Shown here: positions 2,914 to 24,000 of the stretch, one piece after another
Numbering within the stretch: position 1 is the stretch's first letter
Layout of the letters: each line of letters begins with the position of its first letter
DNA from: Tepidibacter thalassicus DSM 15285
Lineage (GTDB): Bacteria > Bacillota > Clostridia > Peptostreptococcales > Peptostreptococcaceae
Assembly (NCBI RefSeq): GCF_900129915.1
Contig: NZ_FQXH01000022.1
Coordinates: 1-24,000 of the forward strand
Reading direction: 5' to 3'
Length of the DNA stretch: 24,000 bases
Made by a program: the position numbers and the translations under genes
Notes under the pieces: generated by a model
Database searches by the model: none
The model's input: the letters and a program-made list of their open reading frames with translations, nothing else
What the model was told of the DNA's origin: nothing

Positions 2914-2914
2914 A

Positions 2915-3805
2915 ATGGATTTTACTCCTATAGGTGTTTTGAGAGAAAATAAGAAAGAAGACAAAAAAATATGGTCTTTTAAAAAACTAAATTTAAAACA
3001 AAATATATTTATCTCTCCACTTGTTTTATTTATAATAACACTTTTATGTATATTAGCACCTTTAATTACTCATGTAGATCCAACGTATATGGAGTTGTCT
3101 AAGGTGTTTGTATCTCCATGTAGAGAAAATATATTTGGAACAGATCATCTAGGAAGAGATATATTTTCGAGAGTTTTATATGGAGGAAGAATATCTATTA
3201 CTATAGGAGTATTGTCTATGATTATATCTACAGTGTTTGGAGTAATTTATGGAAGTGTAAGTGGATATTTTGGAGGAATTATAGATGATTATATGATGAG
3301 ATTTATAGATATTATGATTAGTATTCCTTCGTTGCTTGTTATGACATTAATTCAATCTATACTTCAAAGTAATAAAGTAGGCAGTATAGTGCTTGTAATA
3401 GCTGTAACTAGTTGGATGAATATAGCTAAAATTGTGAGAAGTGAAGTGTTAGAATTAAAACAAAGAGAATTTGTACTTGCGTCTAAGGTTATGGGAGCTG
3501 ATTTTATTCATATAACAAAAAAACATCTTATACCTAATTTTATTCCAGCTATTATTTATATGTCTACTGTGAATTCTGCAAATGCAATTATGGCAGAAAC
3601 TACATTGAGTTTTTTAGGGTTAGGACTTCCGGTAGAAGTTCCTTCTTGGGGAAGTATGTTAATGGATGCGCAAAATAGTATTCTTTTAAATAAATGGTGG
3701 GTAGCGTTATTTCCTGGAGTGTTTATGGTAGCTACAATATTTGGTATAACGAATGTAGGAGAGTATATAAGAGTTAAAAATAATAAGAAATTTAATAATA
3801 TATAA
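2915..3805 (+). CDS. ABC transporter permease (DppC/NikC/OppC-like)
   Basis: Starts 2 nt after the previous stop. N-terminal OppC_N-like region, EAA-loop FVLASKVMGADFIHITKKHLIPNFIP, multiple TM segments. Confidence 0.9.
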   Translation: MDFTPIGVLRENKKEDKKIWSFKKLNLKQNIFISPLVLFIITLLCILAPLITHVDPTYMELSKVFVSPCRENIFGTDHLGRDIFSRVLYGGRISITIGVLSMIISTVFGVIYGSVSGYFGGIIDDYMMRFIDIMISIPSLLVMTLIQSILQSNKVGSIVLVIAVTSWMNIAKIVRSEVLELKQREFVLASKVMGADFIHITKKHLIPNFIPAIIYMSTVNSANAIMAETTLSFLGLGLPVEVPSWGSMLMDAQNSILLNKWWVALFPGVFMVATIFGITNVGEYIRVKNNKKFNNI

Positions 3806-7414: not shown

Positions 7415-7438
7415 GTTAAATCTTAATTATCCTTTTTT
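7403..7438. terminator. 13-bp hairpin spanning both convergent stop codons, with a T-run on the plus strand
   Basis: AAGGATAATTAAG (7403-7415) pairs with CTTAATTATCCTT (7422-7434); TTTTTT runs through 7438. The Lon-like stop is at 7412-7414 and the cyclo-ligase stop at 7416-7418. Confidence 0.6.
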
Positions 7439-8003
7439 CTGTTACTATGTAATTTAGTTTTGCATCATGTTCTTCTTTTGGTATATTATTAAATACTTGG
7501 AGTTCAAATGCTATTCCAATTGTTTTAGCATCTTTTCTTAAGGTTTTTAAAAATCTATCGTAGTATCCTCCTCCGTATCCTAATCTATAACCGTTTATAT
7601 CATAGGCAACTGCAGGAACTATAACAATATCTATTTCGTTGTTATTTACAGGTCTTATGTATTCTTGTTTTGGTTCTCTTATACCGTATGTTCCTATTTT
7701 TACTTCTTTTTGTATGTCTTTTATTTCGGATAATAAAAGTTTTTTTTCTGATACTACACTTATGGGAACGACGACTTTTTTTCCATTTGATATTAAATAA
7801 TTAATAATATCATCTGTTTTTACTTCATTATTGAAATCGAGGTATGCCATAATGGTATTGGCATTTTTTATTTCGTTTAATGATATTAGATTTTCGAATA
7901 TTTTTTTTGATTTTTTCAATATTAAATCGTTATTTTGTTCTTTTCTTATTTTTAGTACATTTTTCCTAAATTCTTTTTTCACTGTATTTATCTCCTTTCT
8001 CAT
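7416..8003 (-). CDS. 5-formyltetrahydrofolate cyclo-ligase (MTHFS)
   Basis: Family motifs GIREP and DIVIVPAVAYDINGYRLGYGGGYYDRFL. The real start may be the GTG at 7982, which has AAAGGAG 9 nt upstream; the ATG at 8003 lacks an SD. Confidence 0.85.
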   Translation of the reverse strand: MRKEINTVKKEFRKNVLKIRKEQNNDLILKKSKKIFENLISLNEIKNANTIMAYLDFNNEVKTDDIINYLISNGKKVVVPISVVSEKKLLLSEIKDIQKEVKIGTYGIREPKQEYIRPVNNNEIDIVIVPAVAYDINGYRLGYGGGYYDRFLKTLRKDAKTIGIAFELQVFNNIPKEEHDAKLNYIVTEKRIIKI

Positions 8004-12573: not shown

Positions 12574-13557
12574 TTATTCAAATGAGCAAGCTACATTTAG
12601 ATTACTCCATTTACCACATTTATCTCCCCATCTAGCAACTAATTCATCATCTCTATAAATTCCAATAATTTCGCATACATTTGGGCAGTTATCACATTCA
12701 AACCCTTTTACTTTAAAGTTTTTGTCTGTTATATTAAATCCTAAAAAATTACTTTTTTCTTTGTTTTTTACTTTTTCTTTGGCAAGTAGAGCTGCTCCAA
12801 TGGCGCCCATGACATTATGATATTTAGGAACGTGTATTTCATATCCAAGAGCTTTTTCAAAAGCTTTTTTTATTCCGATATTAGCTGCAACTCCTCCTTG
12901 AAATACTATAGGAGGTTGTATATCTTTTCCTTTTGCTAAATTGTTCAAATAATTTCTAACTAATGCTTCGCATAATCCATTTATTATATCCTCTTGACTA
13001 TATCCGAGTTGTTGTTTATGGATCATATCGGATTCTGCAAATACAGCACATCTTCCTGCTATTCTAACTTGAGTAGTAGAATTAAGTGCTAATTTACCAA
13101 ATTCTTCTATAGGGATTCCAAGTCTTGATGCTTGTCGATCTAAAAAAGAACCTGTTCCAGCGGCACATACTGTATTCATTGCAAAATCACTTATAACGTT
13201 ATTTCTTAATAGTATAATTTTTGAATCTTGTCCACCTATTTCTAAAATGGTTTTAACACCTGGAACGAAGTTTAATGCAGCAATTGCATGAGCGGTAATT
13301 TCATTTTTTACAATATCTGCTCCTACCATAACACTAGCGAGTTCTCTTCCACTTCCAGTTGTTCCAACTCCAGAGATTTGTATATTATCTAGATTTTTTA
13401 GAGATTTTTTTATTTTTCCTAAACCTTCTTTTAATACGTTAATCGGGTTTCCCATAGTTCTTATATATAGTTTTTCTAATAAATTATTATTTTCATCTAT
13501 AATTACTATATTGGTACTTACTGAGCCTACATCAATTCCAAGATAAACATTTTTCAT
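12574..13557 (-). CDS. BcrAD/BadFG/HgdC-family ATPase (acyl-CoA dehydratase-type activase) with a Cys-rich C-terminal extension
   Basis: GIDVGSVSTN phosphate-binding start. NTVCAAGTGSFLD and AGRCAVFAESD match the cluster-ligand segments of HgdC-type activators. Extra tail FECDNCPNVCE...KCGKW...C. SD AAAGGAG. Overlaps the upstream gene by 26 nt. Confidence 0.85.
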   Translation of the reverse strand: MKNVYLGIDVGSVSTNIVIIDENNNLLEKLYIRTMGNPINVLKEGLGKIKKSLKNLDNIQISGVGTTGSGRELASVMVGADIVKNEITAHAIAALNFVPGVKTILEIGGQDSKIILLRNNVISDFAMNTVCAAGTGSFLDRQASRLGIPIEEFGKLALNSTTQVRIAGRCAVFAESDMIHKQQLGYSQEDIINGLCEALVRNYLNNLAKGKDIQPPIVFQGGVAANIGIKKAFEKALGYEIHVPKYHNVMGAIGAALLAKEKVKNKEKSNFLGFNITDKNFKVKGFECDNCPNVCEIIGIYRDDELVARWGDKCGKWSNLNVACSFE

Positions 13558-14647
13558 TGTTAATAAACTCCTTTCTTCTTGAAAGTAAATCTATAAAAGC
13601 CTCTATTCGAGTTAAATATCCAGCTTCACCTGTCATTTCATCTAATATTAGAGATAGAATAGGAATACTTTTTTCGTTTTCTATAGTTGGAAGAATGCTT
13701 TGTGCTACAATTTCGGGCATACATGTAAATGGCAGTAGGTGAATGACGCCATCATAGTTTTTTTGACTATATCTAACTGTATTTCCTATAGTTTGTTTAG
13801 CGTGGCCTCCTATTTGTTTACTTAAATATGGTTTTGCAGCTTTGTGAATGTCTTTTTTTTCAGAATGTATAAATGGAAGAAAGTCCATTTGCTCTTTTAA
13901 AAATTCACTGGAGTTTATAGATTTGTGTACTTCAATTCCCATATTACCTAATTTTTTTTCAATATTGAAATTTACGAAAGGTTCTACAATTGTGTATATT
14001 TCTCCTACAATTCCTATTTTTAGGACATTTTTGTTTTTGTCAATTTTTATTTTTTTTAGTTTTTCTTTATTTTTTTCTATAATTTTGATAGTTTCTTTAA
14101 ATCCTTTTGAGTTATTTATATCTCTTTCGAATTGAGAGTATATTTTATCTACTTCTCCTTTGATTATTTCTCTTGGTCTTATTGTATTTACAATATTGTC
14201 AAATTCATCAACTTCAAATAGTATTTTTATGCCTTTTTTAAAAGCAGATAAAATTTTAAAGTAATTATTCGTGTTGGATACTTTTTTTAGTTTTTGAAGA
14301 AAATCTTTTATTTCTTCTAGTGTTCTAAAAGGTTCTACGGAAATCATTTCAACATTGTAACCTAAATCGTTTAATATTTCTCTTTGAAGTGTACTGTATA
14401 GTCCTAATCTGCAAGGTCCACATCCGCTTATCATAAAAATAGTGTCTGCTCCTTTTTTAATTCCTTCTATATAATTTCCCATATTAATTTTAAAAGGCAT
14501 ACAAATAAGTTCTGGTGAATATTTTGTACCAATCTCGAGAGTATTTTTACTGCATTTTGGAGGAGTTATTACCTCGACATTTAATTCTTCAAACATAACT
14601 TTGATAGCTATGTATGTATTACCCATGTGTGGGAACGTTACTTTCAT
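13532..14647 (-). CDS. Activase-associated Cys-rich protein (DUF2229 / HGD-D-like), subunit 2
   Basis: 371 aa, paralogous to the upstream 313-aa product. Motifs ELICMPFK, SGCGPCRLG, LPFTCMPE, and tail LDEMTGEAGYLTRIEAFIDLL. GGAGGG SD. 29-nt overlap with the upstream gene. Confidence 0.75.
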   Translation of the reverse strand: MKVTFPHMGNTYIAIKVMFEELNVEVITPPKCSKNTLEIGTKYSPELICMPFKINMGNYIEGIKKGADTIFMISGCGPCRLGLYSTLQREILNDLGYNVEMISVEPFRTLEEIKDFLQKLKKVSNTNNYFKILSAFKKGIKILFEVDEFDNIVNTIRPREIIKGEVDKIYSQFERDINNSKGFKETIKIIEKNKEKLKKIKIDKNKNVLKIGIVGEIYTIVEPFVNFNIEKKLGNMGIEVHKSINSSEFLKEQMDFLPFIHSEKKDIHKAAKPYLSKQIGGHAKQTIGNTVRYSQKNYDGVIHLLPFTCMPEIVAQSILPTIENEKSIPILSLILDEMTGEAGYLTRIEAFIDLLSRRKEFINNEKCLSWN

Positions 14648-15560
14648 TTTTATCCCTCCATTTAATCATATCTATAAAAGCTTCAATTCTTGTATTTAAA
14701 CCTCCTTCTCCTGTGTGTTCATCTAAAGTTAGAAGCATAAAAGGAATATCACTTTCTCTTTTTATATATCTTTCTATTGTGTCTGCTACAACAGAATCAA
14801 TTCCACATCCAAAAGATGATACATAGATAATTCCATTGACAATTTTATTCTCGATTAAATAAAGTGTAGTTCCGATGAGTTTTCTAGCAAATGTCCAAAA
14901 TATTTTTCCTTTATATTTTTTGGCATATTCATTGATATAAATATCGTCTATCATTTGAGGAGTTAATACATCAATTTCATTTAAATTTATTTTGTTTATT
15001 GTATTCATATTTACGTAAGTATCGTATAAGTTATATGTATGTCCCATAAGCATAATTTTTTTATTATTTTTATTGGGGATATTATTTAACATATTTTTTT
15101 TATATTCTTCAAATTTTAAATATGCTATATCGTAGGCACGTGATATAGTATTAAAATCAGTTGAGAAATATTTTCCTATTTCATAAATAGTTTCATTTAA
15201 ATTGTCTTTTGATTTTATAAAATTAATTTCAGTATTAATGATTTCTGGTAAATCTTTTATTGAATTTTTAATCATTTCTGGTAGACCGCAAAATTTTGGA
15301 CAAATATGTTCACCTTTAAATAAACTCATTATTCTAGGTATAAAAATATAATCAACTTTATCTTTTAAATTTAATACATGTCCGTGAAATAATTTAACGG
15401 GTAAACATGCATCATCTACTGTATTTTGTACTCCTTCGTTGAGAATTTTTTTATTTGTATTTTCAGATATTATAACTTGAGCACCTAATTCCTCGAAGAA
15501 AGTTGTCCATAAAGGAGCGTATTCATGAAAAAGAAGTGCTCTAGGTATTCCTATTTTCAT
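14619..15560 (-). CDS. Activase-related protein (DUF2229-like), subunit 1
   Basis: 313 aa. Motifs DDACLPVK, HICPKFCGLPE, SSFGCGIDS, and tail LDEHTGEGGLNTRIEAFIDMI. AGGAGG SD 8 nt upstream of the ATG. Confidence 0.75.
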   Translation of the reverse strand: MKIGIPRALLFHEYAPLWTTFFEELGAQVIISENTNKKILNEGVQNTVDDACLPVKLFHGHVLNLKDKVDYIFIPRIMSLFKGEHICPKFCGLPEMIKNSIKDLPEIINTEINFIKSKDNLNETIYEIGKYFSTDFNTISRAYDIAYLKFEEYKKNMLNNIPNKNNKKIMLMGHTYNLYDTYVNMNTINKINLNEIDVLTPQMIDDIYINEYAKKYKGKIFWTFARKLIGTTLYLIENKIVNGIIYVSSFGCGIDSVVADTIERYIKRESDIPFMLLTLDEHTGEGGLNTRIEAFIDMIKWRDKNESNVPTHG

Positions 15561-15695: not shown

Positions 15696-16892
15696 ATGAT
15701 TGATTTAACTAAGCTTTTAAGTAAAACTGATATAGAAAAGGATTGTATAAGATATTCAAAGGATTGTAGTAAAGCTAAAAGTGGAGTACGAAAAGGCATG
15801 GGTCCTGTTGTGGTATGGAATATAACTAATATATGTAATTTTAAATGCAAGCACTGCTACTCAAATGCAGTTTCGTATAAAAGTGAAGAAGAGTTAAGCA
15901 CTAAAGAAGTAAAAAAGGTTATAGATGATTTAGCTAGTATAAATGTGCCAGTAATATTATTATCTGGAGGAGAGCCTCTTATGAGGAATGATATATTTGA
16001 GATTATAAAATACATAAAATATAAAGGTATTAGAGTGAGTCTTTCAACTAATGGAAGTCTTATAACACAGGATACTGCTAGAATATTAAAAGATTTAGGT
16101 ATTGGTTATGTGGGCATTAGTTTGGATGGGACTTCTAAAACTAATGATTATTTTAGAGGAGTTAATGGAGCATATGATAGGGTTGTGAATGCCATAAAAA
16201 ATTGTAAAGAAGTAGACCAAAAGGTGGGTCTTAGATTTACTATTCAAAAGAAAAACTATAAAGAGGTAAAAGATATTTTAAAATTAGTAGATGAAATGGA
16301 TATTCCAAGAATTTGCTTTTATCATTTAGTTCCTAGTGGAAGAGGTCAAAGTATAATTGATGATATGTTATCTCATGATGAAATTAAATATGTTATAGAT
16401 GTTTTATATTATTATGTAAAAAATATGGTGAATGAAAATAAAAATATTAAAGAGATATTAACAGTTGCAAATTTTACAGATGGTGTATATGTGTATCTAA
16501 AGGAAAAAGATGCTAATCAAAAAGAAAGGATATTAGAGCTTTTAAAAAGAAATGGTGGAAATAGATCAGGAAGTGCAATTGCAAATATTGACTATAGGGG
16601 AAATGTATATCCAGATCAATTTTTTAAAAGCCATATATTAGGAAATGTAAAAGAGAACTCTTTTTCTGAAATATGGAATGGAGAAAATATATTTTTAAGT
16701 GAACTGAGGAATAAAAAAGAAAAAGTAAAGGGAAGATGTAAAAGCTGTAAATATCTTGATATATGTAAAGGGAATTTAAGAGCTAGAGCTTATGGATATT
16801 ACGGTGATATTTGGGCTGAGGATCCTAGCTGCTATCTTACAGATAAAGAAATTGGGGTGAAAAATAATGATTATATCATGGAACATGACTAA
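15696..16892 (+). CDS. ahbC: Radical-SAM enzyme, NirJ1/AhbC-like (Fe-coproporphyrin III synthase candidate)
   Basis: CNFKCKHC CxxxCxxC motif, GGEPL SAM-binding motif, C-terminal CKSCKYLDICKG...C cluster motif. AAGGAG SD. In a cassette with a second radical-SAM gene and two siroheme decarboxylase-type genes. The AhbC versus AhbD assignment is tentative. Confidence 0.65.
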   Translation: MIDLTKLLSKTDIEKDCIRYSKDCSKAKSGVRKGMGPVVVWNITNICNFKCKHCYSNAVSYKSEEELSTKEVKKVIDDLASINVPVILLSGGEPLMRNDIFEIIKYIKYKGIRVSLSTNGSLITQDTARILKDLGIGYVGISLDGTSKTNDYFRGVNGAYDRVVNAIKNCKEVDQKVGLRFTIQKKNYKEVKDILKLVDEMDIPRICFYHLVPSGRGQSIIDDMLSHDEIKYVIDVLYYYVKNMVNENKNIKEILTVANFTDGVYVYLKEKDANQKERILELLKRNGGNRSGSAIANIDYRGNVYPDQFFKSHILGNVKENSFSEIWNGENIFLSELRNKKEKVKGRCKSCKYLDICKGNLRARAYGYYGDIWAEDPSCYLTDKEIGVKNNDYIMEHD

Positions 16893-17859
16893 AAACTGTA
16901 ATTTATATTGCAAGCATTGCTATAGAGATGCAGGTCCTAATGAAAAGCAAAAGGATGAATTAGATACTAAGGAAAGTAAGGAATTGATTAAAGGAATAGC
17001 TAAAGCAGGATTTAAAATATTAATTTTTAGTGGAGGAGAGCCACTTCTTAGAGAAGATTTGTTTGAGTTGACAGAATACGCTCACTCATTAGGTCTTATA
17101 GTTGGACTTGGAACTAATGGAACTTTGATTACAAAAGAAATTGCGAAAAAATTAAAGGAAAGTAAAGTTCGTGCAGTAGCAATAAGCTTAGATAGTTTAG
17201 ATGAAAATAAACATGATGAATTTAGACAAGTTAAAGGTAGCTTTAAGGATTGTATAAGAGGAATTAAAGAAAGTATAAATGCAGGACTTAAAGTTCAAAT
17301 AAATACTACTGTAACTAAATCTAATTATGAAGAGATAACTAAAATTACTGATTATATTTCATCTCTTGGTGGACATTCTCATCATCCATTTTTTCTTGTA
17401 GAAGTAGGACGCGGGAAAAATATAGGGAAAGAAGGTTTAAATAAAAAAGAATATAAAGAAATTATAAATAGAATACTTGATAAGCAGAAAAATACTCATA
17501 TAGAATTAAAGCCAACTTGTGCTCCACAGTTTATGGTAGAGGCTAAAGAAAAAGGGATGGATATGAGGTTTAGCAGAGGATGTATTGCTGGAATTAAATA
17601 CTGCTGTATACTACCTAATGGAGATGTTCATATTTGTCCATATCTGCCTATAAAGGTTGGAAGTGTTAGAGAAAAGCCTTTTGATGTTATATGGGAACAA
17701 AGTGAAATTTTTAATAAGCTTAGAGATTATAAAAATTATAAAGGTAATTGTGGATCTTGTAAAAATATAAATATTTGTGGAGGGTGTAGAGCTAGAGCTT
17801 TTAGTAAAACTGGAGATTATCTTCAAGAGGATACTTTTTGCTTAAAGGGGGACGATTAA
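16867..17859 (+). CDS. ahbD: Radical-SAM/SPASM-like enzyme, NirJ2/AhbD-like (haem synthase candidate)
   Basis: CNLYCKHC motif and GGEPL. Full auxiliary-cluster region GCIAGIKYCCILPNGDVHICPYL plus CGSCKNINICGGCRARAF...C. GGGGTGA SD. 26-nt overlap with the upstream gene. Confidence 0.65.
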   Translation: MIISWNMTKNCNLYCKHCYRDAGPNEKQKDELDTKESKELIKGIAKAGFKILIFSGGEPLLREDLFELTEYAHSLGLIVGLGTNGTLITKEIAKKLKESKVRAVAISLDSLDENKHDEFRQVKGSFKDCIRGIKESINAGLKVQINTTVTKSNYEEITKITDYISSLGGHSHHPFFLVEVGRGKNIGKEGLNKKEYKEIINRILDKQKNTHIELKPTCAPQFMVEAKEKGMDMRFSRGCIAGIKYCCILPNGDVHICPYLPIKVGSVREKPFDVIWEQSEIFNKLRDYKNYKGNCGSCKNINICGGCRARAFSKTGDYLQEDTFCLKGDD

Positions 17860-17860
17860 A

Positions 17861-18316
17861 ATGGATTGTATAGATTGTAAAATTTTAAATGAAGTTCAAA
17901 ATGGAATATCTATTCAAAAAAGACCTTTTAAAAAAATAGCAGATAATTTAGGTATAAGTGAAGATGAGGTTGTAAATAGAATTAATAACTTAAAGGAAAA
18001 AGGATATATAAGGAGGTTTGGAGGAATATTTGACAGCCAAAATTTAGGAGTTGCAAGTACGCTTGTTGCTATGAAGATTGAAAAAGATATAGATTATGTA
18101 GCAAATATTGTGAGTGAATATAGTGGAGTAACTCATAATTATCAAAGAGAGGATGAGTACAATCTTTGGTTTACATTAATGGCTTCATCTAATGGAGAGC
18201 TTGAGAATATATTGAAAGAAATAAAAGAGAGAACAGGAGTACAGGATATTTTAAATCTTCCTTCAGTTAATAAGCATAAGGTTCATGTACATCTTAATTT
18301 TGACAATAAAGGGTGA
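17861..18316 (+). CDS. ahbA: Siroheme decarboxylase subunit (NirD/L/G/H-AhbA/B family, AsnC fold)
   Basis: N-terminal wHTH (RPFKKIADNLGISEDEVVNRINNLKEKGYIRRFG) followed by VTHNYQREDEYNLWFTL, which matches the NirDL/Ahb signature. The A versus B label follows gene order only. Confidence 0.7.
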   Translation: MDCIDCKILNEVQNGISIQKRPFKKIADNLGISEDEVVNRINNLKEKGYIRRFGGIFDSQNLGVASTLVAMKIEKDIDYVANIVSEYSGVTHNYQREDEYNLWFTLMASSNGELENILKEIKERTGVQDILNLPSVNKHKVHVHLNFDNKG

Positions 18317-18325
18317 TTTTATTTG

Positions 18326-18802
18326 ATGGATAATATAGATAAAGATATTATAGTTTATTTATCTCAAGATATAGAAGTAACTAAGGATATTTATGAGGAT
18401 TTGAGTAAAAAATTTAATATATCTGAAGAAGATCTTATTAAAAGGTTAAAAAGATTAAATGAAAGTGGTTATTTAAAACGTATTGCTCCCGTTATGATTC
18501 ATCAAAAAAGTGGTTATAACAGTAACGCCATGGCAGTTTGGAATATACCAAAAGATAATTTAAAAAAATTTATAGACATAATTAAGGGTATTAATAATAT
18601 AAGTCATATTTATGAAAGAAGAACAGATGAGAAATGGCCTTATAATTTATATACAATGATTCATGGAAGAAATAAAAAAGAAGTAGAGAATATAATAAAT
18701 TATTTATTGCAAAAAATAGAAGTTAAAGATTTTAAGGTGTTATATACAATTAAGGAATGGAAAAAAACGAGTCCGAATTTATCAAAACTAATAAAAAAAT
18801 AG
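18326..18802 (+). CDS. ahbB: Siroheme decarboxylase subunit (second AhbA/B-family paralogue)
   Basis: ISHIYERRTDEKWPYNLYTMIHGRNKKE...FKVLYTIKEWKK matches the second Ahb/NirH-type subunit pattern. ATG at 18326; the TTG at 18323 is an alternative start. Confidence 0.7.
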   Translation: MDNIDKDIIVYLSQDIEVTKDIYEDLSKKFNISEEDLIKRLKRLNESGYLKRIAPVMIHQKSGYNSNAMAVWNIPKDNLKKFIDIIKGINNISHIYERRTDEKWPYNLYTMIHGRNKKEVENIINYLLQKIEVKDFKVLYTIKEWKKTSPNLSKLIKK

Positions 18803-18967
18803 TTATTTCTCGGGAAATATATTAGAATACATGGAAATTATATTTTGTATTTAATATTTTGCTGATTATTGAAAAATGAATTTGACATAATTAAGACAAA
18901 AAAATACTTTATTTTTACCAATTAATAGTATAAAATGGATATGTAACCAATAAAAAGTGAATATAAA

Positions 18968-19215
18968 TTATAGGTTCTTTATGATTAAAAGGGAAGAACG
19001 GTGAAAATCCGTCACAGCCCCCGCTACTGTGATCATCAACGAAACCTCAATTGTCCACTAGTTAAAAACTGGGAAGGTGAGGGAGTAGATAGGATGTAAG
19101 TCAGGAGACCTGCCTATAATTTTTCAATTGCTATTTCGGAGGGAAATATGCATGGATATAGGTAATTACTACCTATTCATAATGCAATTAAGACTCCGTT
19201 AGGAGTCTTTTTTTT
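18968..19215 (+). promoter_or_regulatory. Cobalamin (B12) riboswitch with intrinsic terminator expression platform
   Basis: Aptamer ~18968-19120 with GGGAAGAACGGTGAAAATCCGTCACAGCCCCCGCTACTGT, CCACT...GGGAAGG and the B12 box AAGTCAGGAGACCTGCC. P1 is TATAGG/CCTATA. The terminator is AAGACTCC-gtta-GGAGTCTT plus T-run (19190-19215). Confidence 0.93.
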
Positions 19216-19233
19216 AGAAAAAAGAGGGGTGTT

Positions 19234-20298
19234 ATGGAAAATAGAGTTGACGTAATTAGTAATTTTAACGATAAAAAAAAGAAATTGATTGTAGTGGGTA
19301 GTGTTTTGTTTACATTTATAGTATTTTTGCTTGTATTGTCGGTTAATTTAGGAAGAGCTGATATTAGTATAAGTGAAGTAATAAAAATAATTTATGGAAA
19401 AATTACGTTTGATGAAAAAATTTTAGGTGATATAAGTAAATCGAAAATTGCTATAGTTTGGAATATAAGGCTTCCAAGAATTTTAATAGCGATATTTGTT
19501 GGATGGGGTCTTGCGGTTTCTGGAACTGTTTTTCAATCTTTATTAATGAATCCATTGGCAGATCCTTATACAATAGGGGTTTCAACAGGGGCAGCATTTG
19601 GAGCAGTTATTGCTATATATATAAATATATTTATATTAGAAAACCCTATACCCATAACTCCTTTTGCATTTTTAGGAGCAATATTTACACTTTTTCTTGT
19701 AATAAAAATTGCAAATAAGAATGGATATATGAGTTCATCAAATTTAATAATTTCAGGAATTATTGTAAGCTCTATATTATCTGCTGGTATAAGTTTTTTA
19801 AAAAGTGCATCTGGGGAGCAGGTTTCAGCTATAATATATTGGCTTATGGGAAGTTTAGATTCGAGATCTTGGAATCAGGTGATTTTGAGTTTTCCTGTGA
19901 TTATGATTTTGACATTTGTATGTATATATTTTTCAGAGGATTTAAATATACTTGCTTTAGGAGAATGCCAAGCTAGATCTCTTGGAGTAAATACAAAAAA
20001 AATTAGAAGTATATTTTTGATAAGTGCATCATTGATTACTGCAGTTTGTGTTTCTGTAAGTGGAATAATAGGATTTATAGGTCTTATAGTTCCCCACATG
20101 TTGAGATTTTCTTTAACATCAGATAATAAATCGCTTATTCCATTATCAGCACTTTTGGGTTCACTTTTACTTTTATTTGCTGATAATATATCAAGGGTTT
20201 TGTTTAATGTTGAAATTCCCGTGGGAGTTATAACAACGTTGTTTGGAGGACCTTTTTTTATATATATATTTATTAGCAAGAATAAAAGTATACAATGA
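19234..20298 (+). CDS. FecCD-family ABC permease (BtuC-like corrinoid/iron-chelate importer)
   Basis: ~10 TM segments. FecCD motifs (WNIRLPRIL, DPYTIGVSTGAAFGA, GIIGFIGLIVPHMLR). First gene behind the B12 riboswitch. Confidence 0.88.
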   Translation: MENRVDVISNFNDKKKKLIVVGSVLFTFIVFLLVLSVNLGRADISISEVIKIIYGKITFDEKILGDISKSKIAIVWNIRLPRILIAIFVGWGLAVSGTVFQSLLMNPLADPYTIGVSTGAAFGAVIAIYINIFILENPIPITPFAFLGAIFTLFLVIKIANKNGYMSSSNLIISGIIVSSILSAGISFLKSASGEQVSAIIYWLMGSLDSRSWNQVILSFPVIMILTFVCIYFSEDLNILALGECQARSLGVNTKKIRSIFLISASLITAVCVSVSGIIGFIGLIVPHMLRFSLTSDNKSLIPLSALLGSLLLLFADNISRVLFNVEIPVGVITTLFGGPFFIYIFISKNKSIQ

Positions 20299-20315: not shown

Positions 20316-21071
20316 ATGCTTAAGGTCCAAAATGTTAGTTTTAGTTATAAAGATAAAGTTGTTCTTGATGATATAAGTTTTTCAATGGGGAAGGGAAAAT
20401 TTTTATCTATAATAGGACCAAATGGTTCAGGAAAAACTACTCTTTTGAATTTATTGACTGGATATTTAGAAAAGAAAACTGGAAGTATAAAATTTTTGGG
20501 TAAAGAAATAAAAAATTATTCAGTTGAAGAACTTTCAAGAAATTTTGCAATAATAAATCAAAATACAAATATAAGGTTTCCCTTTACATGTCTTGAAATA
20601 GTGATGATGGGAAGAAATCCATTTAGAGAAAGAATGAAAAAGTTAAGTGAAAATGATATGGAGATAGTTTATAAATCTATGGAAATTACTGATACTTTAA
20701 AATTTTCAGATTCACTTATAACTCAAATAAGTGGAGGAGAATTTCAAAGGGTTATGCTTGCTAGAGCTTTAAGTCAAAAACCAAGTATTTTATTTTTAGA
20801 CGAGGCTTTTTCTGCCATGGATATTTCGCAGAGAATTAAATCTTTAAAGTTAATTAAGGGTTTAGTAATAAAAGAGGGTTTAACTGTTGTATCAATAATA
20901 CATGATTTAAATCTTGCTTATATGTTTAGCGATGAAGTTTGTGTTTTAAAAGAAGGAAAGATGGTAGCGTTTGGAAAGTGCAGTGATATAATGACTGCAG
21001 ATTTTATCAACGAAGTATTTGATATAAATGTAGATAGAATTGATAATAGAGGATTTTTAATAATGCTTTAA
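20316..21071 (+). CDS. ABC ATPase (BtuD/FepC/HmuV-like)
   Basis: Walker A GPNGSGKTT, signature ISGGEFQRV, Walker B ILFLDEAFS, H-loop IIHD. Confidence 0.9.
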   Translation: MLKVQNVSFSYKDKVVLDDISFSMGKGKFLSIIGPNGSGKTTLLNLLTGYLEKKTGSIKFLGKEIKNYSVEELSRNFAIINQNTNIRFPFTCLEIVMMGRNPFRERMKKLSENDMEIVYKSMEITDTLKFSDSLITQISGGEFQRVMLARALSQKPSILFLDEAFSAMDISQRIKSLKLIKGLVIKEGLTVVSIIHDLNLAYMFSDEVCVLKEGKMVAFGKCSDIMTADFINEVFDINVDRIDNRGFLIML

Positions 21072-21133: not shown

Positions 21134-22039
21134 ATGAAAATTAAAAAAAGCTTAACTTTATTGTTGAGTTTGTTGTTGTTAGGGGGGATTTTAGCAGGAT
21201 GTTCTAGTGCTGGAGCTGCTGAAGAAGAGGTTAAAAAGGATCCAAATAAAAAAGCTGTTCTCGTAGTAAGTTTTGGTACGAGCTATGCAGATACTCGTAA
21301 AGTTACAATTGAGGCTTGTGAAAGCAAAATAGACAAAGCTTTTCCTGATTATGAGATGAGAAGAGCTTTTACTTCAGATATTATAATCAAAAAACTTAAA
21401 GAAAGAGATAAAATAAAAGTTGATACTCCAAAAGAAGCTTTAACTAAATTAAAAAAAGAAGGTTTTTCAGAAGTTATAGTTCAACCTCTTCATGTTATTA
21501 ATGGAGCAGAATATGATGATTTAATTGCAGAAGTTAATAATTTTAAAAATGATTTTGATAAATTAGTTGTTGGAAATCCATTGCTTACAAGTATTGAAGA
21601 TTATAAAAATTTAGTTGAGGCTTTAAAAACTCAAATGCCAGAGCTTAAGGATAATGAAGCTGTTGTATTTATGGGTCATGGAACTCATCATTATTCAAAT
21701 TCTGCTTATGCATGTCTTGATTATATGTTTGAAGATATGGGAATAAGAGCTTATGTAGGTACAGTTGAGGGATATCCAACACTTGACAATGTAATTAAAA
21801 AATTAAAGAGAGATAATGTAGAAAAAGTAATATTGATGCCATTAATGCTTGTTGCAGGAGACCATGCTAATAATGATATGGCAGGAGATGAAGAGGATTC
21901 TTGGAAAAGCGTACTTAAAAAAGAAGGATTTGTGGTTGAAGCTTATTTACATGGTTTAGGTGAGAATGAAAAAGTACAAGATATGTATGTTCAGCATGCA
22001 AAAGAAGCAGTAAATTCTCAAGAGAAAACTGAAAAATAA
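21134..22039 (+). CDS. cbiK: CbiK-family class II chelatase homologue carrying a lipoprotein signal peptide (extracytoplasmic)
   Basis: From residue ~40 it looks collinear with Salmonella CbiK as I remember it (VLVVSFGTSYADT, RAFTS, MGHGTHH, LMPLMLVAGDHANNDMAG, DSWK, GLGEN). The N-terminus MKIKKSLTLLLSLLLLGGILAG|CSS is a canonical lipobox signal. Confidence 0.85.
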   Translation: MKIKKSLTLLLSLLLLGGILAGCSSAGAAEEEVKKDPNKKAVLVVSFGTSYADTRKVTIEACESKIDKAFPDYEMRRAFTSDIIIKKLKERDKIKVDTPKEALTKLKKEGFSEVIVQPLHVINGAEYDDLIAEVNNFKNDFDKLVVGNPLLTSIEDYKNLVEALKTQMPELKDNEAVVFMGHGTHHYSNSAYACLDYMFEDMGIRAYVGTVEGYPTLDNVIKKLKRDNVEKVILMPLMLVAGDHANNDMAGDEEDSWKSVLKKEGFVVEAYLHGLGENEKVQDMYVQHAKEAVNSQEKTEK

Positions 22040-22050
22040 TAAATATTAAT

Positions 22051-22088
22051 ACAAATAATCATCAGTTATTTCGCTGATGATTATTTGT
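22051..22088 (+). other. Perfect 15-bp stem / 8-nt loop hairpin between the cbiK-like and btuF-like genes
   Basis: ACAAATAATCATCAG (22051-22065) pairs with CTGATGATTATTTGT (22074-22088). No T-run follows, and the SD GGAGG lies 6 nt downstream. Confidence 0.7.
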
Positions 22089-22105
22089 ATGTTGGAGGAA
22101 TGAAT

Positions 22106-23557
22106 ATGAAAAAAATGGAAAATAAATTAGTTCTATTGTTTACTATATTAATTTCCTTAGTAGTATTTACAGGATGTAGTAGTGTATCTGATAGTGAGAA
22201 AGCTGGTAATAAAGAGTATTCTATAAATTTTGTAGATGATTCAGGAAATGAAATAAATATGAACGAGCCTGCAAAAAAGATAATATCTCTTTATTCTGCT
22301 CATACAGAAAATTTATTTGCACTTGGGCTTGATGATGAAATAATAGGTGTTGGAACCAGTGATATATATCCAGCTAAAGCACTAGAAAAAGAAAAGTATG
22401 ATTATAGATCAGATCCTGAAAAAGTTATAGCAGCAGAACCTGATTTAGTTTTAATTAGACCTTTTATAAAAAGGTCAAAACCAGAGTTTGTAGATGCTCT
22501 TGAAAAGGCTGGTTTAAATGTAGTTTCACTATATCCTGAAAGCTTTGATAAATTTGATGATTACATAAAAAAATTAGGTATGCTTACTGGGAAAACAGAT
22601 AGAGCTGAGCAATTGCTAGAGGATTTTTATAAACAAATTGAAGAAATAAAAAGTATAACAAAAGATATAAGTCCAAAAGTTAATGTTTATTTTGAATCAT
22701 CTGAAAATGGATATAAGACTGTAACAGTTGATTCTATGCCTGCTAAAGCAATAGAAATAGCAGGAGGATTAAATATAGCAACAGATGCAAAACCTAAAAA
22801 AGAAGGAAGTTCAATAGCTGTTTATGGAGCAGAAAGAATACTTGAAAAAGCTGATAAAATTGATGTGTTTGTTTCTCAAAATGGAGTTATGAATGCAGGA
22901 GGTAATAAGCATTCAATAGTTATAAGACCGGGATTTGATTCTATTAAAGCAATTAAGAATAATAGAGTTTATATTATAAATCAAAAAATCATATCAAGTC
23001 CTACATTTAGATACTTAGAGGGGGTAAAAGAGCTTTGTAGAATGTTTTATCCTGAGGTGTTTGATGATATATCAAAATTTAGTTTGGATGAAGAAATTAC
23101 AAGAGATAAGATGGCAGAGATTATAGTTAGATTTAAAAACAAGGGTATATTTGTTCCTACTTCAAAATACTATAGAAAAGAGCATAAGGGACATACTTAT
23201 GGATTGTTTAAAGATGTAGATATAGACAATGAATATTTTAATTTTATAGAAACAGCAGTGACTTCTGGTTATATGAAAGGATTTAAGGAAAATGATGAAG
23301 AATATTTTTATCCTAAAAATAAAATTTCACGAGAAGAGTTTGCGAGTATATTATTTATGATAGGAGATTTAGAAAAGAAAGAGAATAACAATGTGCATAT
23401 TAAAGATTTAGATAAAGTAAAAAATGCAAAAATAGTTCAAATTGTTGTAGACAATAAATTGATGGAACTTGAGAATGGGAATTTTAATCCAGAGAGAAAT
23501 GTTACAGGGAAAGAAGTAGTTAAATCTCTCGAAAAATTGAGAGAAAAAACAAAATAA
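22106..23557 (+). CDS. BtuF-like (class III / PF01497-type) substrate-binding lipoprotein with SLH-like C-terminal repeats
   Basis: ATG at 22106, 7 nt after GGAGG. Lipobox FTG|CSS. N-terminal ~300 aa are periplasmic-binding-protein-like (KKIISLYSAHTENLFALGLDDEIIGV, AAEPDLVLI). The C-terminal ~160 aa contain FKDVDIDNEYFNFIETAVTSGYMKGF...FYPKNKISREEFASILF (SLH-like) flanked by two degenerate copies. The ORF-track TTG start at 22085 lies inside the hairpin. Confidence 0.8.
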   Translation: MKKMENKLVLLFTILISLVVFTGCSSVSDSEKAGNKEYSINFVDDSGNEINMNEPAKKIISLYSAHTENLFALGLDDEIIGVGTSDIYPAKALEKEKYDYRSDPEKVIAAEPDLVLIRPFIKRSKPEFVDALEKAGLNVVSLYPESFDKFDDYIKKLGMLTGKTDRAEQLLEDFYKQIEEIKSITKDISPKVNVYFESSENGYKTVTVDSMPAKAIEIAGGLNIATDAKPKKEGSSIAVYGAERILEKADKIDVFVSQNGVMNAGGNKHSIVIRPGFDSIKAIKNNRVYIINQKIISSPTFRYLEGVKELCRMFYPEVFDDISKFSLDEEITRDKMAEIIVRFKNKGIFVPTSKYYRKEHKGHTYGLFKDVDIDNEYFNFIETAVTSGYMKGFKENDEEYFYPKNKISREEFASILFMIGDLEKKENNNVHIKDLDKVKNAKIVQIVVDNKLMELENGNFNPERNVTGKEVVKSLEKLREKTK

Positions 23558-23569
23558 ATGGGTGAAAAA

Positions 23570-24000
23570 ATGAGTGAAATTATAAATATAGAAAATGTTA
23601 CTAAAAAATACGGGGATTTTATTGCAGTTGACAAACTCAATTTGAATATAAAAAAGGGAAGTTTTATTGGTTTGCTGGGGCCAAATGGAGCAGGCAAGAC
23701 TACTCTTATAAGTATATTGATAGGTCTTTTAAAACCAAGTGATGGTAAAGTTTTTATAATGGGTCAAGAAATGAGTAGAAATAATGTTTTTTTAAAAAAA
23801 CAAATAGGCATAGTTCCCCAGCATATAAATTTGGATAAAGATCTTACTGTTAAAGAAAATCTTATATTAGCTGCTAAATTATTTAGGATAAAGGGAAAGG
23901 AGAGGGAGATACAAATAGAAAAACTTCTTGATTATATGGATCTTAAGAAAGTAGAAAATCGGATAAGTAGAAATTTATCTGGTGGAATGAAAAGAAAATT
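23570..24000 (+). CDS. ABC-2/DrrA-type ABC transporter ATPase, 5' partial (runs off the window)
   Basis: My own translation gives MSEIINIENVTKKYGDFIAV..., Walker A GPNGAGKTT, Q-loop VPQ, signature LSGGMKRK. No stop before 24000. An in-frame ATG at 23558 is an alternative start. Confidence 0.85.
   Translation, partial: MSEIINIENVTKKYGDFIAVDKLNLNIKKGSFIGLLGPNGAGKTTLISILIGLLKPSDGKVFIMGQEMSRNNVFLKKQIGIVPQHINLDKDLTVKENLILAAKLFRIKGKEREIQIEKLLDYMDLKKVENRISRNLSGGMKRK

What the first reader, a model, noticed from the sequence alone, without database searches (positions are those of the whole stretch)
21134..22039. Exported (lipoprotein) CbiK chelatase homologue with catalytic His motifs retained
Seen: the N-terminus MKIKKSLTLLLSLLLLGGILAG|CSSAGAAEEE is a canonical type-II signal with lipobox. 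The remainder looks collinear with cytoplasmic sirohydrochlorin cobaltochelatase CbiK and keeps the metal/tetrapyrrole-site segments MGHGTHH and VAGDHANND.

Established (from memory): extracytoplasmic CbiK paralogues exist, namely the periplasmic haem-binding CbiK(P) of Desulfovibrio vulgaris and the haemin-binding lipoprotein IhtB of Porphyromonas gingivalis. Their physiological role is unsettled.

Inference: here the gene is under a B12 riboswitch in a Gram-positive-type genome and lies next to Ahb haem genes. Possible roles:
- a surface corrinoid or porphyrin capture protein
- an extracellular (de)chelatase that salvages metal-free or wrongly metallated tetrapyrroles
- a cobalt-delivery factor

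I do not know of a demonstrated function for such B12-regulated exported chelatases in Firmicutes.
Basis: partly seen in the sequence, partly recalled or inferred. Interest (0 to 1): 0.65.

Follow-up and report, generated by a model that had tools for sequence, protein, structure and literature searches.

The report
Exported B12-regulated cobalt chelatase lipoprotein
A seemingly fully functional copy of the enzyme that puts cobalt into the vitamin B12 precursor is anchored outside the cell membrane, inside a B12-repressed uptake operon, which suggests that in many anaerobes this step, or a closely linked salvage step, happens outside the cytoplasm.

Summary
ORF 21134-22039 encodes a 301-aa protein with a canonical lipoprotein signal (MKIKK, hydrophobic run, LAG|C) fused to a complete CbiK chelatase domain. 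The domain is 50% identical to cytoplasmic Salmonella CbiK, and His182/Glu212/His244 are intact.

It is the third gene of a cobalamin-riboswitch operon: btuC, btuD, cbiK, btuF(SLH), then an ABC-2 exporter. Tepidibacter relatives continue with cbiL.

This is not an oddity:
- 169 of 193 close homologues carry a signal peptide or hydrophobic N-terminus.
- 59 of 80 genome loci have a riboswitch upstream.
- Exported forms sit beside FecCD-type importers (38 of 43); forms without a signal peptide do not (0 of 4).
- No residue separates exported from cytoplasmic forms.

In two independent lineages, loss of the importer genes coincides with clean removal of the signal peptide. The chelatase domain and riboswitch stay intact.

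Best reading (about 40%): an active extracytoplasmic cobaltochelatase whose metallated tetrapyrrole product is imported to feed CbiL. Rivals are a non-catalytic corrinoid capture protein, a haem/porphyrin role, or cobalt hand-off.

The haem-binding histidines of Desulfovibrio CbiK(P) are absent. I found no paper on this in Firmicutes. It is a new variant of a known kind.

The parts
18955..19131 (+). Cobalamin riboswitch aptamer
   Evidence: Rfam RF00174, 122.6 bits against a gathering score of 31.5, full-length model match.
19190..19217 (+). Intrinsic terminator of the riboswitch expression platform (8-bp GC-rich stem plus U-run), 17 nt before btuC
   Evidence: Terminator scan. The MFE fold shows the hairpin, z = -3.1. 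No other + strand terminator was found from here to 24000.
19234..20298 (+). btuC-like FecCD-family ABC importer permease (354 aa)
   Evidence: Pfam FecCD E 1e-94. Best NCBIfam models are BtuC, at 284 and 236 bits, both below the equivalog cut-offs.
20316..21071 (+). btuD-like ABC importer ATPase (251 aa)
   Evidence: Pfam ABC_tran. NCBIfam corrinoid ATPase 237 bits and haem ATPase 233 bits, both below cut-off.
21134..21202 (+). Type II (lipoprotein) signal peptide of CbiK, through lipobox Cys23 (codon 21200-21202)
   Evidence: Sequence MKIKKSLTLLLSLLLLGGILAG|C. Conserved in Tepidibacter orthologues and present in 112 of 197 aligned homologues. Predicted as a helix followed by a low-confidence linker.
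21134..22039 (+). Whole cbiK lipoprotein gene (301 aa): signal peptide, acidic linker (residues 24-39) and chelatase domain (residues 40-293 = 21251-22012)
21677..21865 (+). Segment holding the metal-site residues: His182 (21677-21679), Glu212 (21767-21769), His244 (21863-21865)
   Evidence: They align with Salmonella CbiK His145/Glu175/His207. His/His are invariant in 197 of 197 homologues and Glu in 196 of 197, across exported and cytoplasmic forms.
22049..22090 (.). 17-bp-stem inverted repeat between the cbiK stop and the btuF start
   Evidence: Terminator-like scan hit on the minus strand. Function not examined.
22085..23557 (+). btuF-like class III substrate-binding protein with its own lipobox (LVVFTG|C) and a C-terminal SLH cell-wall anchor. 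The true start is probably an ATG at 22100-22115.
   Evidence: Pfam Peripla_BP_2 E 3e-26 and SLH E 4e-11. The best PDB relatives by sequence are an iron-binding protein (4m7o) and a B12-binding protein (5ysc); E. coli BtuF scores 1e-9 and haem binding proteins are weaker.
23570..24000 (+). 5' part of an ABC-2-type exporter ATPase, which runs off the window. In relatives it is followed by an ABC-2 permease and cbiL.
   Evidence: tblastn shows 78% identity to the T. hydrothermalis gene. Locus L081 gene list and NCBIfam: DrrA-like ATPase, ABC-2 permease, and cobalt-factor II C20-methyltransferase at 319 bits against a cut-off of 274.

Best explanation
The gene encodes a catalytically competent class II (ATP-independent) sirohydrochlorin-type cobaltochelatase. 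It is exported by the Sec/lipoprotein route and anchored on the outer face of the cytoplasmic membrane. It works as the extracytoplasmic partner of the co-transcribed BtuCD-BtuF-type importer, and the operon is switched on when adenosylcobalamin is scarce.

Proposed mechanism:
1. A metal-free tetrapyrrole, most likely sirohydrochlorin, reaches the cell surface. The ABC-2 exporter encoded in the same operon is the candidate route.
2. CbiK inserts Co2+ into it outside the cell.
3. The SLH-anchored binding protein and BtuCD import the cobalt complex (cobalt-factor II).
4. The operon's last gene, cbiL, methylates it, and the anaerobic B12 pathway continues.

The pathway intermediate would thus double as a cobalt carrier.

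Shown here: export signal, intact active site, riboswitch control, operon membership, and evolutionary coupling of export to the importer. Inferred: the substrate, the direction of traffic, and the role of the ABC-2 pump.
For: 1. Active site and fold cannot be told apart from the biosynthetic enzyme.
- 50% identity and TM 0.95 to Salmonella CbiK.
- His/His invariant in all 197 homologues and Glu in 196 of 197; 45 positions near-invariant in both exported and cytoplasmic forms; no position separates the two classes.

2. Exported and cytoplasmic forms interleave in the tree. There are at least 16 switches among 193 sequences, and the two forms reach 84-85% identity. This argues for the same chemistry in both compartments.

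3. Export is coupled to an importer.
- With full flanks, 38 of 43 exported genes have a same-strand FecCD permease within 6.5 kb, against 0 of 4 genes without a signal peptide (Fisher p = 7e-4).
- 59 of 80 loci carry a same-strand cobalamin riboswitch upstream.

4. Two independent natural conversions.
- T. mesophilus lost btuCD (a 3' remnant of btuD remains) and btuF. It also lost exactly the 37 codons of signal peptide plus linker, in frame. It kept the riboswitch, the ribosome-binding site, an 85%-identical chelatase domain, the ABC-2 genes and cbiL.
- A relative of Paramaledivibacter lost btuCD plus codons 1-33 in one deletion, gained a new ATG in the linker, and lost btuF. It kept the riboswitch and the chelatase domain.
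- A useless accessory protein would be expected to decay. Here it was relocated to the cytoplasm instead.

5. Operon logic.
- The set {exported cbiK, binding protein, FecCD permease, ATPase, ABC-2 ATPase, ABC-2 permease, cbiL} recurs in different gene orders in Tepidibacter, a Bacillota MAG and Lachnospiraceae.
- Starting independently from the ABC-2 permease family, 26 of 50 metagenome loci of at least 8 kb have a FecCD importer adjacent, 19 have CbiK and 12 have CbiL.

6. Link to biosynthesis. 34 of 67 exported-cbiK loci contain cbi biosynthetic genes. In several the exported cbiK lies in one same-strand operon with cbiC/D/G/J and cobA-hemD.

7. Precedent for activity.
- From memory (primary papers not held here), CbiK(P) is reported to have cobaltochelatase activity.
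- FetB inserts Co and Mn into a porphyrin in vitro (PMC13065792).
- Desulfovibrio also has a B12 element controlling cbiK-cbiL plus btuCDF, and lacks known cobalt transporters (PMC545781).
Against: - No direct evidence that sirohydrochlorin is ever outside the cell.
- T. mesophilus keeps intact ABC-2 genes although its CbiK is now cytoplasmic. This weakens the proposed exporter role.
- Only 9 of 82 genome loci show the ABC-2 pair next to cbiK.
- In 52 of 80 loci the neighbour is a tandem NEAT-fold surface protein. That protein type is known for capturing external tetrapyrroles, which fits scavenging at least as well.
- I could not search whole genomes, so a second, cytoplasmic chelatase in Tepidibacter cannot be excluded. 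Desulfovibrio has one.
- The two conversion events are only n = 2.
- The transporter components are most similar to B12 importers, though below the equivalog cut-offs.
Confidence: 0.4

Rival explanations
1. Non-catalytic corrinoid capture. The exported CbiK uses its tetrapyrrole cleft, with His ligands to cobalt, to bind external cobamides, cobinamide or cobyrinic-acid-like compounds at the surface. It hands them to BtuF-BtuCD, as the accessory lipoproteins BtuG/BtuH do in Bacteroides.
For: - Riboswitch control and BtuFCD-like partners.
- Tandem NEAT-fold surface proteins, a tetrapyrrole-relay architecture like Isd, occur in 52 of 80 related loci.
- Accessory surface B12-binding lipoproteins are established in Bacteroides (PMC6143338, PMC8941943).
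Against: - There is no sequence divergence from the cytoplasmic enzymes at any position, although cobamides differ greatly from sirohydrochlorin.
- It does not explain the linked cbiL and ABC-2 genes.
- It does not explain why loss of the importer is followed by precise conversion to a cytoplasmic enzyme rather than decay.
Confidence: 0.25
2. Haem or porphyrin handling, as proposed for Desulfovibrio CbiK(P) and P. gingivalis IhtB/FetB. The protein would bind haem, or insert or remove metals in porphyrins at the surface, for iron or haem acquisition or for pigment formation.
For: - Same fold and export as CbiK(P) and FetB.
- FetB makes Mn-protoporphyrin (PMC13065792).
- The Ahb haem genes lie next door in the window.
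- NEAT-fold neighbours in related loci are classically haem binders.
Against: - The CbiK(P) haem-ligand histidines are Asp and Asn here and are not conserved in the lipoprotein class.
- Regulation is by cobalamin, not iron or haem.
- The Ahb adjacency is not conserved in the genus.
- The protein is closer to biosynthetic CbiK than to either haem-linked paralogue.
- The link with cbiL and cbi operons is unexplained.
Confidence: 0.1
3. Cobalt capture without a tetrapyrrole. The His-Glu-His site binds free Co2+ at the surface, and the protein acts as a metallochaperone that feeds a co-regulated importer.
For: - The metal site is invariant.
- In a Negativicutes locus a signal-peptide-bearing cbiK lies beside a second riboswitch driving a Nik/Opp-type metal importer.
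- B12 riboswitches commonly control cobalt uptake (PMC7689651).
Against: - FecCD/class III binding-protein importers carry chelates, not bare ions.
- The whole tetrapyrrole-binding surface is conserved, not only the metal site.
- It does not explain the cbiL linkage.
Confidence: 0.1
4. The N-terminal segment does not lead to export in vivo. It would be an uncleaved anchor or an inefficient signal, and the enzyme is an ordinary, perhaps membrane-tethered, cytoplasmic cobaltochelatase.
For: - In a subgroup with a non-lipobox hydrophobic N-terminus, the n-region has only +1 charge and positive residues follow the hydrophobic core.
- One such gene is the only chelatase in a complete cbi operon, with no importer nearby.
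Against: - The window protein has a textbook lipoprotein signal: n-region +3, LAG|C, and an acidic stretch after the Cys.
- Across 112 lipobox forms, mean n-region charge is +2.4 and the charge after the hydrophobic core is -0.6.
- The signal is lost exactly when the importer is lost.
Confidence: 0.05

Closest known systems
Salmonella enterica CbiK (cytoplasmic sirohydrochlorin cobaltochelatase, PDB 1qgo/2xwp)
   Same: - Closest solved relative: 50% identity, TM 0.95.
- Same His145/Glu175/His207 site.
- Same pathway neighbour, cbiL, in relatives.
   Different: The Salmonella enzyme has no signal peptide and sits in the cytoplasmic cbi operon. The window protein is a lipoprotein placed between importer genes.
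Desulfovibrio vulgaris CbiK(P) (periplasmic, haem-binding; PDB 2xvx-2xvz)
   Same: - An exported CbiK.
- In Desulfovibrio a B12 element controls cbiK-cbiL together with btuCDF (PMC545781), which is the same gene set as here.
- Its physiological role is likewise undetermined (PMC11568245).
   Different: - Only 38-39% identical.
- Per the literature as I recall it, CbiK(P) is a soluble periplasmic protein of a diderm, whereas this is a lipoprotein of a monoderm.
- The haem-ligand histidines are absent here.
Porphyromonas gingivalis IhtB/FetB (PDB 9b86)
   Same: - A lipoprotein with the CbiK fold, encoded with an ABC importer (IhtCDE).
- It has Co and Mn chelatase activity in vitro (PMC13065792; PMC12094164).
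   Different: - 40% identical.
- It is an outer-membrane protein partnered with a TonB-dependent receptor.
- It is linked to haem and Mn-protoporphyrin rather than to cbi genes.
- Whether a riboswitch controls it was not examined here.
Chelatase genes in B12-regulated corrinoid transport loci (CobN-type, as in Dehalobacter restrictus operon-2)
   Same: A chelatase is repeatedly found in riboswitch-controlled corrinoid transport operons, and its role there is unexplained (PMC4285132).
   Different: Those are class I, ATP-dependent, cytoplasmic multi-subunit chelatases. This is a class II single-subunit enzyme placed outside the membrane.
Isd-type haem relay of Gram-positive bacteria (NEAT receptors, IsdE binding protein, IsdF permease)
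   Same: Related loci combine NEAT-fold surface proteins, a class III binding protein and a FecCD permease.
   Different: The loci here are controlled by cobalamin, not iron, and they contain a chelatase. The NEAT-like domains carry HxxxY where the haem-binding YxxxY motif would be. The window operon itself has no NEAT gene.
Siderophore-style export and re-import shuttles
   Same: An exporter and a FecCD importer are encoded side by side, and the ligand would be loaded with metal outside the cell. This is how the system may work, not a membership claim.
   Different: Here metal loading would be enzymatic, and the ligand would be a biosynthetic intermediate that is consumed, not recycled. This is entirely inferred.

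Membership tests
CbiK family, class II sirohydrochlorin cobaltochelatase (Pfam PF06180) | Full-length match to the family profile above the curated threshold | tested here: met
   PF06180: 359 bits against a gathering score of 26.2, profile positions 1-261 of 262.
CbiK family, class II sirohydrochlorin cobaltochelatase (Pfam PF06180) | NCBIfam equivalog SiroCoChCbiK (NF047852) score at or above its cut-off of 400 | tested here: not met
   367.5 bits, below 400. It is close, but the curated 'same function' threshold is not reached.
CbiK family, class II sirohydrochlorin cobaltochelatase (Pfam PF06180) | Metal-insertion residues His145, Glu175 and His207 (Salmonella numbering) | tested here: met
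   His182, Glu212 and His244 are present. His/His are invariant in all 197 aligned homologues and Glu in 196 of 197.
CbiK family, class II sirohydrochlorin cobaltochelatase (Pfam PF06180) | Two-domain alpha/beta chelatase fold | tested here: met
   AlphaFold model pLDDT 93.2. Foldseek to 1qgo: TM 0.95, rmsd 1.5 A.
CbiK family, class II sirohydrochlorin cobaltochelatase (Pfam PF06180) | Cytoplasmic location with the other cbi enzymes | tested here: not met
   A lipoprotein signal peptide is present, with no internal start codon.
CbiK family, class II sirohydrochlorin cobaltochelatase (Pfam PF06180) | Co2+ insertion into sirohydrochlorin | not testable with these tools
   Needs an enzyme assay.
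Bacterial lipoproteins (type II signal peptide) | Positive n-region, hydrophobic core, lipobox [LVI][ASTVI][GAS]C within the first ~35 residues | tested here: met
   MKIKK, SLTLLLSLLLLGGI, L-A-G-C23. Conserved in orthologues. Based on rules only; SignalP/LipoP not available.
Bacterial lipoproteins (type II signal peptide) | Lgt/LspA processing and lipid modification | not testable with these tools
   Needs labelling or globomycin experiments.
Desulfovibrio CbiK(P)-type haem-binding periplasmic chelatase | The two haem-ligand histidines (EEFH and ETAH in CbiK(P)) | tested here: not met
   The aligned residues are Asp and Asn. In the lipoprotein class His occurs at the first position in 6 of 112 sequences.
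Desulfovibrio CbiK(P)-type haem-binding periplasmic chelatase | Export, plus a B12-element operon with btuCDF and cbiL | tested here: met
   for this lineage. PMC545781 for Desulfovibrio.
P. gingivalis IhtB/FetB-type haemin-binding lipoprotein | Lipoprotein with the CbiK fold, encoded with an ABC importer | tested here: met
P. gingivalis IhtB/FetB-type haemin-binding lipoprotein | Partner TonB-dependent outer-membrane receptor (IhtA) and haem/porphyrin substrate | tested here: not met
   No such receptor gene is in the operon. The substrate cannot be tested here.
BtuFCD vitamin B12 ABC importer (the operon partners) | FecCD permease, ATPase and class III binding protein under a cobalamin riboswitch | tested here: met
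BtuFCD vitamin B12 ABC importer (the operon partners) | NCBIfam equivalog cut-offs for BtuC, BtuD and BtuF | tested here: not met
   BtuC 284 against 461 and 236 against 334. BtuD 137 against 281. BtuF 44 against 234. The substrate is therefore open.

The most novel reading that the evidence does not exclude
The first committed step of anaerobic B12 synthesis takes place outside the cytoplasm in a large set of anaerobes. Sirohydrochlorin is pumped out by an ABC-2 exporter and loaded with cobalt by a surface-anchored CbiK. It is then re-imported as cobalt-factor II by a BtuFCD-like importer for CbiL. A pathway intermediate would thus serve as the cell's cobalt carrier and replace a dedicated cobalt transporter. 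In gut Clostridia, NEAT-fold proteins would hold the tetrapyrrole at the surface.
Probability: 0.33. Interest if true: 0.9.

Novelty: new variant of a known kind. Interest (0 to 1): 0.68.

Why it matters
Cobalt insertion is the branch point that commits sirohydrochlorin to B12, and it has always been drawn as a cytoplasmic step. Genome-based predictions of B12 producers count any CbiK as that step (PMC6593275).

If a large share of Clostridial CbiK proteins are surface proteins tied to importers, one of two things follows. Either those predictions mix biosynthesis with uptake, or cobalt enters these cells already bound to the tetrapyrrole. The second case would be a new route of metal acquisition. 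It would also answer the long-open question of what the exported CbiK paralogues of Desulfovibrio and Porphyromonas are for.

The natural signal-peptide-loss variants point to matched Tepidibacter species (T. hydrothermalis, T. mesophilus) in which the question could be tested directly.

The riboswitch-controlled NEAT-fold proteins found alongside would extend a classic haem-uptake domain to corrinoid-related traffic in abundant gut bacteria.

Tried and rejected
- Haem-binding CbiK(P) model: rejected, because the two ligand histidines are absent.
- Class-specific residues separating exported from cytoplasmic forms: none found; the maximum frequency difference was 0.44.
- Cytoplasmic isoform from an internal start: rejected for the window gene, because there is no in-frame start after Cys23.
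- Ahb adjacency as a functional link: not conserved, since an rRNA operon lies upstream in T. hydrothermalis.
- First single-linkage clustering of neighbourhood ORFs merged CbiK, the NEAT-like proteins and the binding proteins, probably through shared acidic linkers. It had to be split by community detection.
- Contexts of the cytoplasmic Crassaminicella forms P0032 and P0052: not on record.
- Lobo et al. 2017 on the cbiK(P) mutant: not held in the library.
- Six literature searches for exported CbiK in Firmicutes, and one for NEAT plus cobalamin, found nothing relevant.
- SignalP/LipoP: not available.
Full report
**The observation**

The ORF lies exactly where stated (21134-22039, + strand, 301 aa) and has a strong ribosome-binding site. 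Its N-terminus, MKIKKSLTLLLSLLLLGGILAG|C, is a textbook lipoprotein signal. Residues 40-293 match the Pfam CbiK profile end to end (E 1.6e-107). They also match cytoplasmic Salmonella CbiK (E 1e-76).

An AlphaFold model (pLDDT 93.2) superposes on Salmonella CbiK at TM 0.95 and rmsd 1.5 A, with 50% identity. That is closer than to the two characterised exported paralogues: Desulfovibrio CbiK(P) at 38-39% identity and Porphyromonas FetB/IhtB at 40%.

The metal-site residues are His182, Glu212 and His244, equivalent to Salmonella His145, Glu175 and His207. No in-frame start codon follows the lipobox cysteine, so the gene cannot also make a cytoplasmic isoform.

**The operon**

A cobalamin riboswitch (122.6 bits, 18955-19131) with an intrinsic terminator (19190-19209) sits 17 nt before a FecCD-type permease gene. 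The genes that follow are:

- an ABC ATPase
- the cbiK lipoprotein
- a class III binding protein, which is itself a lipoprotein with a C-terminal SLH cell-wall anchor
- at the window edge, the start of an ABC-2-type ATPase

No + strand terminator was found between them.

The organism is a Tepidibacter; the closest protein is 87% identical, from T. formicigenes. In T. hydrothermalis the same operon continues with an ABC-2 permease and cbiL. CbiL is the enzyme that uses the CbiK product, and it scores 319 bits against a cut-off of 274.

They lie upstream of the riboswitch, and that adjacency is not conserved in T. hydrothermalis.

**How common exported CbiK is**

Among 193 close homologues, 169 carry a lipobox or another N-terminal hydrophobic signal and only 24 do not. 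Every source name shown for these proteins is plain 'sirohydrochlorin cobaltochelatase' or a close variant.

In 80 loci from one-genome-per-species collections:

- 59 have a same-strand cobalamin riboswitch upstream. Rfam confirmed it in 10 of 13 loci sampled.
- Most have a FecCD permease and an ATPase on the same strand.
- With full flanks, 38 of 43 exported genes have a FecCD neighbour, against 0 of 4 genes without a signal peptide (p = 7e-4).
- Half of the exported-cbiK loci (34 of 67) contain cbi biosynthetic genes. In several Ruminococcus and Ruminiclostridium loci the exported cbiK and its importer are in one same-strand operon with cbiC, cbiD, cobA-hemD, cbiG and cbiJ.

**Is it still an enzyme?**

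Of the three metal-site residues, the two histidines are invariant in all 197 aligned sequences and the glutamate in 196 of 197. Forty-five positions are near-invariant in both classes, and no position separates exported from cytoplasmic forms.

The two classes interleave in a neighbour-joining tree, with at least 16 switches. Cytoplasmic forms are up to 85% identical to exported ones.

The haem-ligand histidines that define Desulfovibrio CbiK(P) are Asp and Asn here.

**Two natural experiments**

- *T. mesophilus against T. hydrothermalis.* T. mesophilus has lost btuC-btuD (the last ~90 nt of btuD survive) and most of btuF. It has also lost, cleanly and in frame, the 37 codons for signal peptide and linker. 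The riboswitch, ribosome-binding site, chelatase domain, ABC-2 genes and cbiL are all intact.
- *A marine relative of Paramaledivibacter caminithermalis.* One deletion removed btuCD together with codons 1-33 of cbiK. A Val-to-Met change in the former linker now provides the start codon. btuF is gone, and the riboswitch now sits directly before a signal-less cbiK. The flanking genes are syntenic.

In both cases loss of the importer went together with relocation of the chelatase to the cytoplasm rather than with its decay. This argues for two things. Export and import are functionally coupled. And the exported enzyme plus importer supplies something that a cytoplasmic cobaltochelatase can also supply.

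**Operon logic**

The set {exported cbiK, binding protein, FecCD permease, ATPase, ABC-2 ATPase, ABC-2 permease, cbiL} recurs in different gene orders in three groups:

- Tepidibacter and a 73%-identical metagenome relative
- a Bacillota MAG
- Lachnospiraceae, where cbiL and the ABC-2 genes are divergently transcribed

I also entered independently, through the ABC-2 permease family. Of 50 metagenome loci of at least 8 kb, 26 place it directly beside a FecCD importer, 19 contain CbiK, 12 contain CbiL and 23 contain a cobalamin riboswitch. An exporter and an importer encoded side by side, with an ATP-independent chelatase between them and the next pathway enzyme at the end, fits a shuttle: tetrapyrrole out, cobalt inserted outside, cobalt complex in.

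Class II chelatases need no ATP, which is established knowledge, so they can work outside the cell. Every lineage identified here as carrying an exported form (Clostridia, Negativicutes, Treponema, Desulfovibrio, Porphyromonas) consists, to my knowledge, of anaerobes, so oxygen-labile sirohydrochlorin could survive outside. Rodionov and colleagues noted that Desulfovibrio has one B12 element controlling cbiK-cbiL and btuCDF, and no known cobalt transporter (PMC545781).

**Reasons for caution**

- Nothing shows sirohydrochlorin outside the cell.
- T. mesophilus keeps its ABC-2 genes.
- Only a minority of loci show the ABC-2 pair next to cbiK.
- I could not search whole genomes for a second chelatase.
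- In 52 of 80 loci the gene next to the exported cbiK encodes a surface protein with no confident Pfam match. It models as two NEAT domains (pLDDT 86; Foldseek to IsdH, IsdX1 and IsdC, TM 0.6-0.72). NEAT proteins classically capture external haem, so in those lineages a scavenging relay is as plausible as a shuttle.
- A subgroup with a non-lipobox hydrophobic N-terminus has a weak n-region. One member is the only chelatase of a complete cbi operon with no importer nearby. Its orientation is uncertain.
- A Negativicutes locus pairs a signal-bearing cbiK with a riboswitch-driven Nik/Opp-type metal importer. This hints at a cobalt theme but a different partner.

**Comparison with what is known**

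Exported CbiK proteins are known from two diderm anaerobes. CbiK(P) is reported (from memory; primary papers not held here) to bind haem and insert cobalt. FetB inserts Co and Mn into a porphyrin in vitro and is needed for Mn-protoporphyrin pigment (PMC13065792). As of 2024-2025 their physiological roles were still described as undetermined or hypothetical (PMC11568245; PMC12094164).

A comprehensive review of cobalt supply for B12 contains no mention of CbiK(P), of a signal peptide or of a lipoprotein (PMC7689651). I found no paper on exported CbiK in Firmicutes, or on NEAT proteins under cobalamin riboswitches.

The window gene is therefore a new variant of a known kind: a lipoprotein form in a monoderm, wired into a riboswitch-importer-exporter-cbiL operon and much closer to the biosynthetic enzyme than to the studied paralogues.

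**Verdict**

| Question | Result |
|---|---|
| Observation | Confirmed |
| Extracytoplasmic cobaltochelatase whose product is imported | about 0.40 |
| Non-catalytic corrinoid capture | 0.25 |
| Haem/porphyrin handling | 0.10 |
| Cobalt hand-off | 0.10 |
| Not exported | 0.05 |
| Interest | 0.68 |

Noticed in passing
L006:5731-6594, L022:5857-6960, L009:2564-2992 and 7033-7674 (52 of 80 related loci; none in the window): A surface-anchored protein (lipobox or signal peptide, often a C-terminal membrane anchor) sits next to exported cbiK under the cobalamin riboswitch. It has no confident Pfam match but models as two NEAT domains, best matching IsdH, IsdX1 and IsdC. It has a conserved HxxxY where haem-binding NEAT domains have YxxxY. 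No paper linking NEAT domains to cobalamin riboswitches was found.
   Followed up: partly
L082 (T. mesophilus) against L081 (T. hydrothermalis); L083/L084 against L085 (Paramaledivibacter): In two independent lineages, deletion of the btuCD and btuF genes coincides with precise loss of the cbiK signal peptide. The riboswitch and chelatase domain are retained.
   Followed up: yes
window 23570-24000; L081:12426-14732; L005:10609-12191; L022:1969-4265; metagenome loci L086-L165: An ABC-2-type exporter pair is repeatedly linked to cbiL and, in 26 of 50 longer metagenome loci, sits directly beside a FecCD-type importer. Its substrate is unknown.
   Followed up: partly
L167:7363-18352: A complete cbi operon (cbiA-C, riboswitch, cbiK-D-E-T-L-F-G, adenosyltransferase, cbiH-J) whose only chelatase has an N-terminal hydrophobic segment, with no importer within 10 kb. 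Whether this subgroup is exported or tethered on the cytoplasmic side is unclear.
   Followed up: partly
L011:5078-6954 (Propionispora) and L004:5977-12365 (Negativicutes MAG): In L011, a tandem pair of cbiK genes, one without and one with a signal peptide, recalls the two Desulfovibrio enzymes. In L004, a signal-bearing cbiK is followed by a second riboswitch and a Nik/Opp-type ABC importer, a candidate cobalt importer.
   Followed up: partly
L034, L040, L044, L045, L051, L058, L061 and others; proteins P0016, P0019, P0023: Many Lachnospiraceae and Ruminococcus forms carry long acidic linkers and a conserved motif, NYxTGDASLDxxRNxDEIGExELLVVSFGTS, just before the chelatase domain. This gives proteins of about 480 aa. 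The function of the motif is unknown.
   Followed up: no
window 22049-22090: A perfect 17-bp-stem inverted repeat lies between the cbiK stop codon and the btuF start. It could be an mRNA processing or stability element, or a partial attenuator.
   Followed up: no
window 15696-18802: NirJ1-like and NirJ2-like radical SAM genes score below the AhbC/AhbD equivalog cut-offs. They are followed by AhbA and AhbB, which score above cut-off. This is a sirohaem-dependent alternative haem-type cluster in a Peptostreptococcaceae genome. It draws on the same sirohydrochlorin branch point as CbiK.
   Followed up: partly
window 380-3805: A Nik/Opp-type binding protein and two permeases (best NCBIfam models are nickel, nickel/cobalt or oligopeptide transporters, all below cut-off), with no riboswitch nearby.
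   Followed up: no
L166:14249-15798 (Caminicella sporogenes): A second cobalamin riboswitch immediately after the cbiK operon precedes an Asp-Al_Ex family permease of unknown substrate.
   Followed up: no
window 12574-15560 (- strand): A BadF/BcrA-type activase gene plus two genes with DUF2229 and 2-hydroxyglutaryl-CoA dehydratase D-component-like domains. They appear unrelated to the finding.
   Followed up: no
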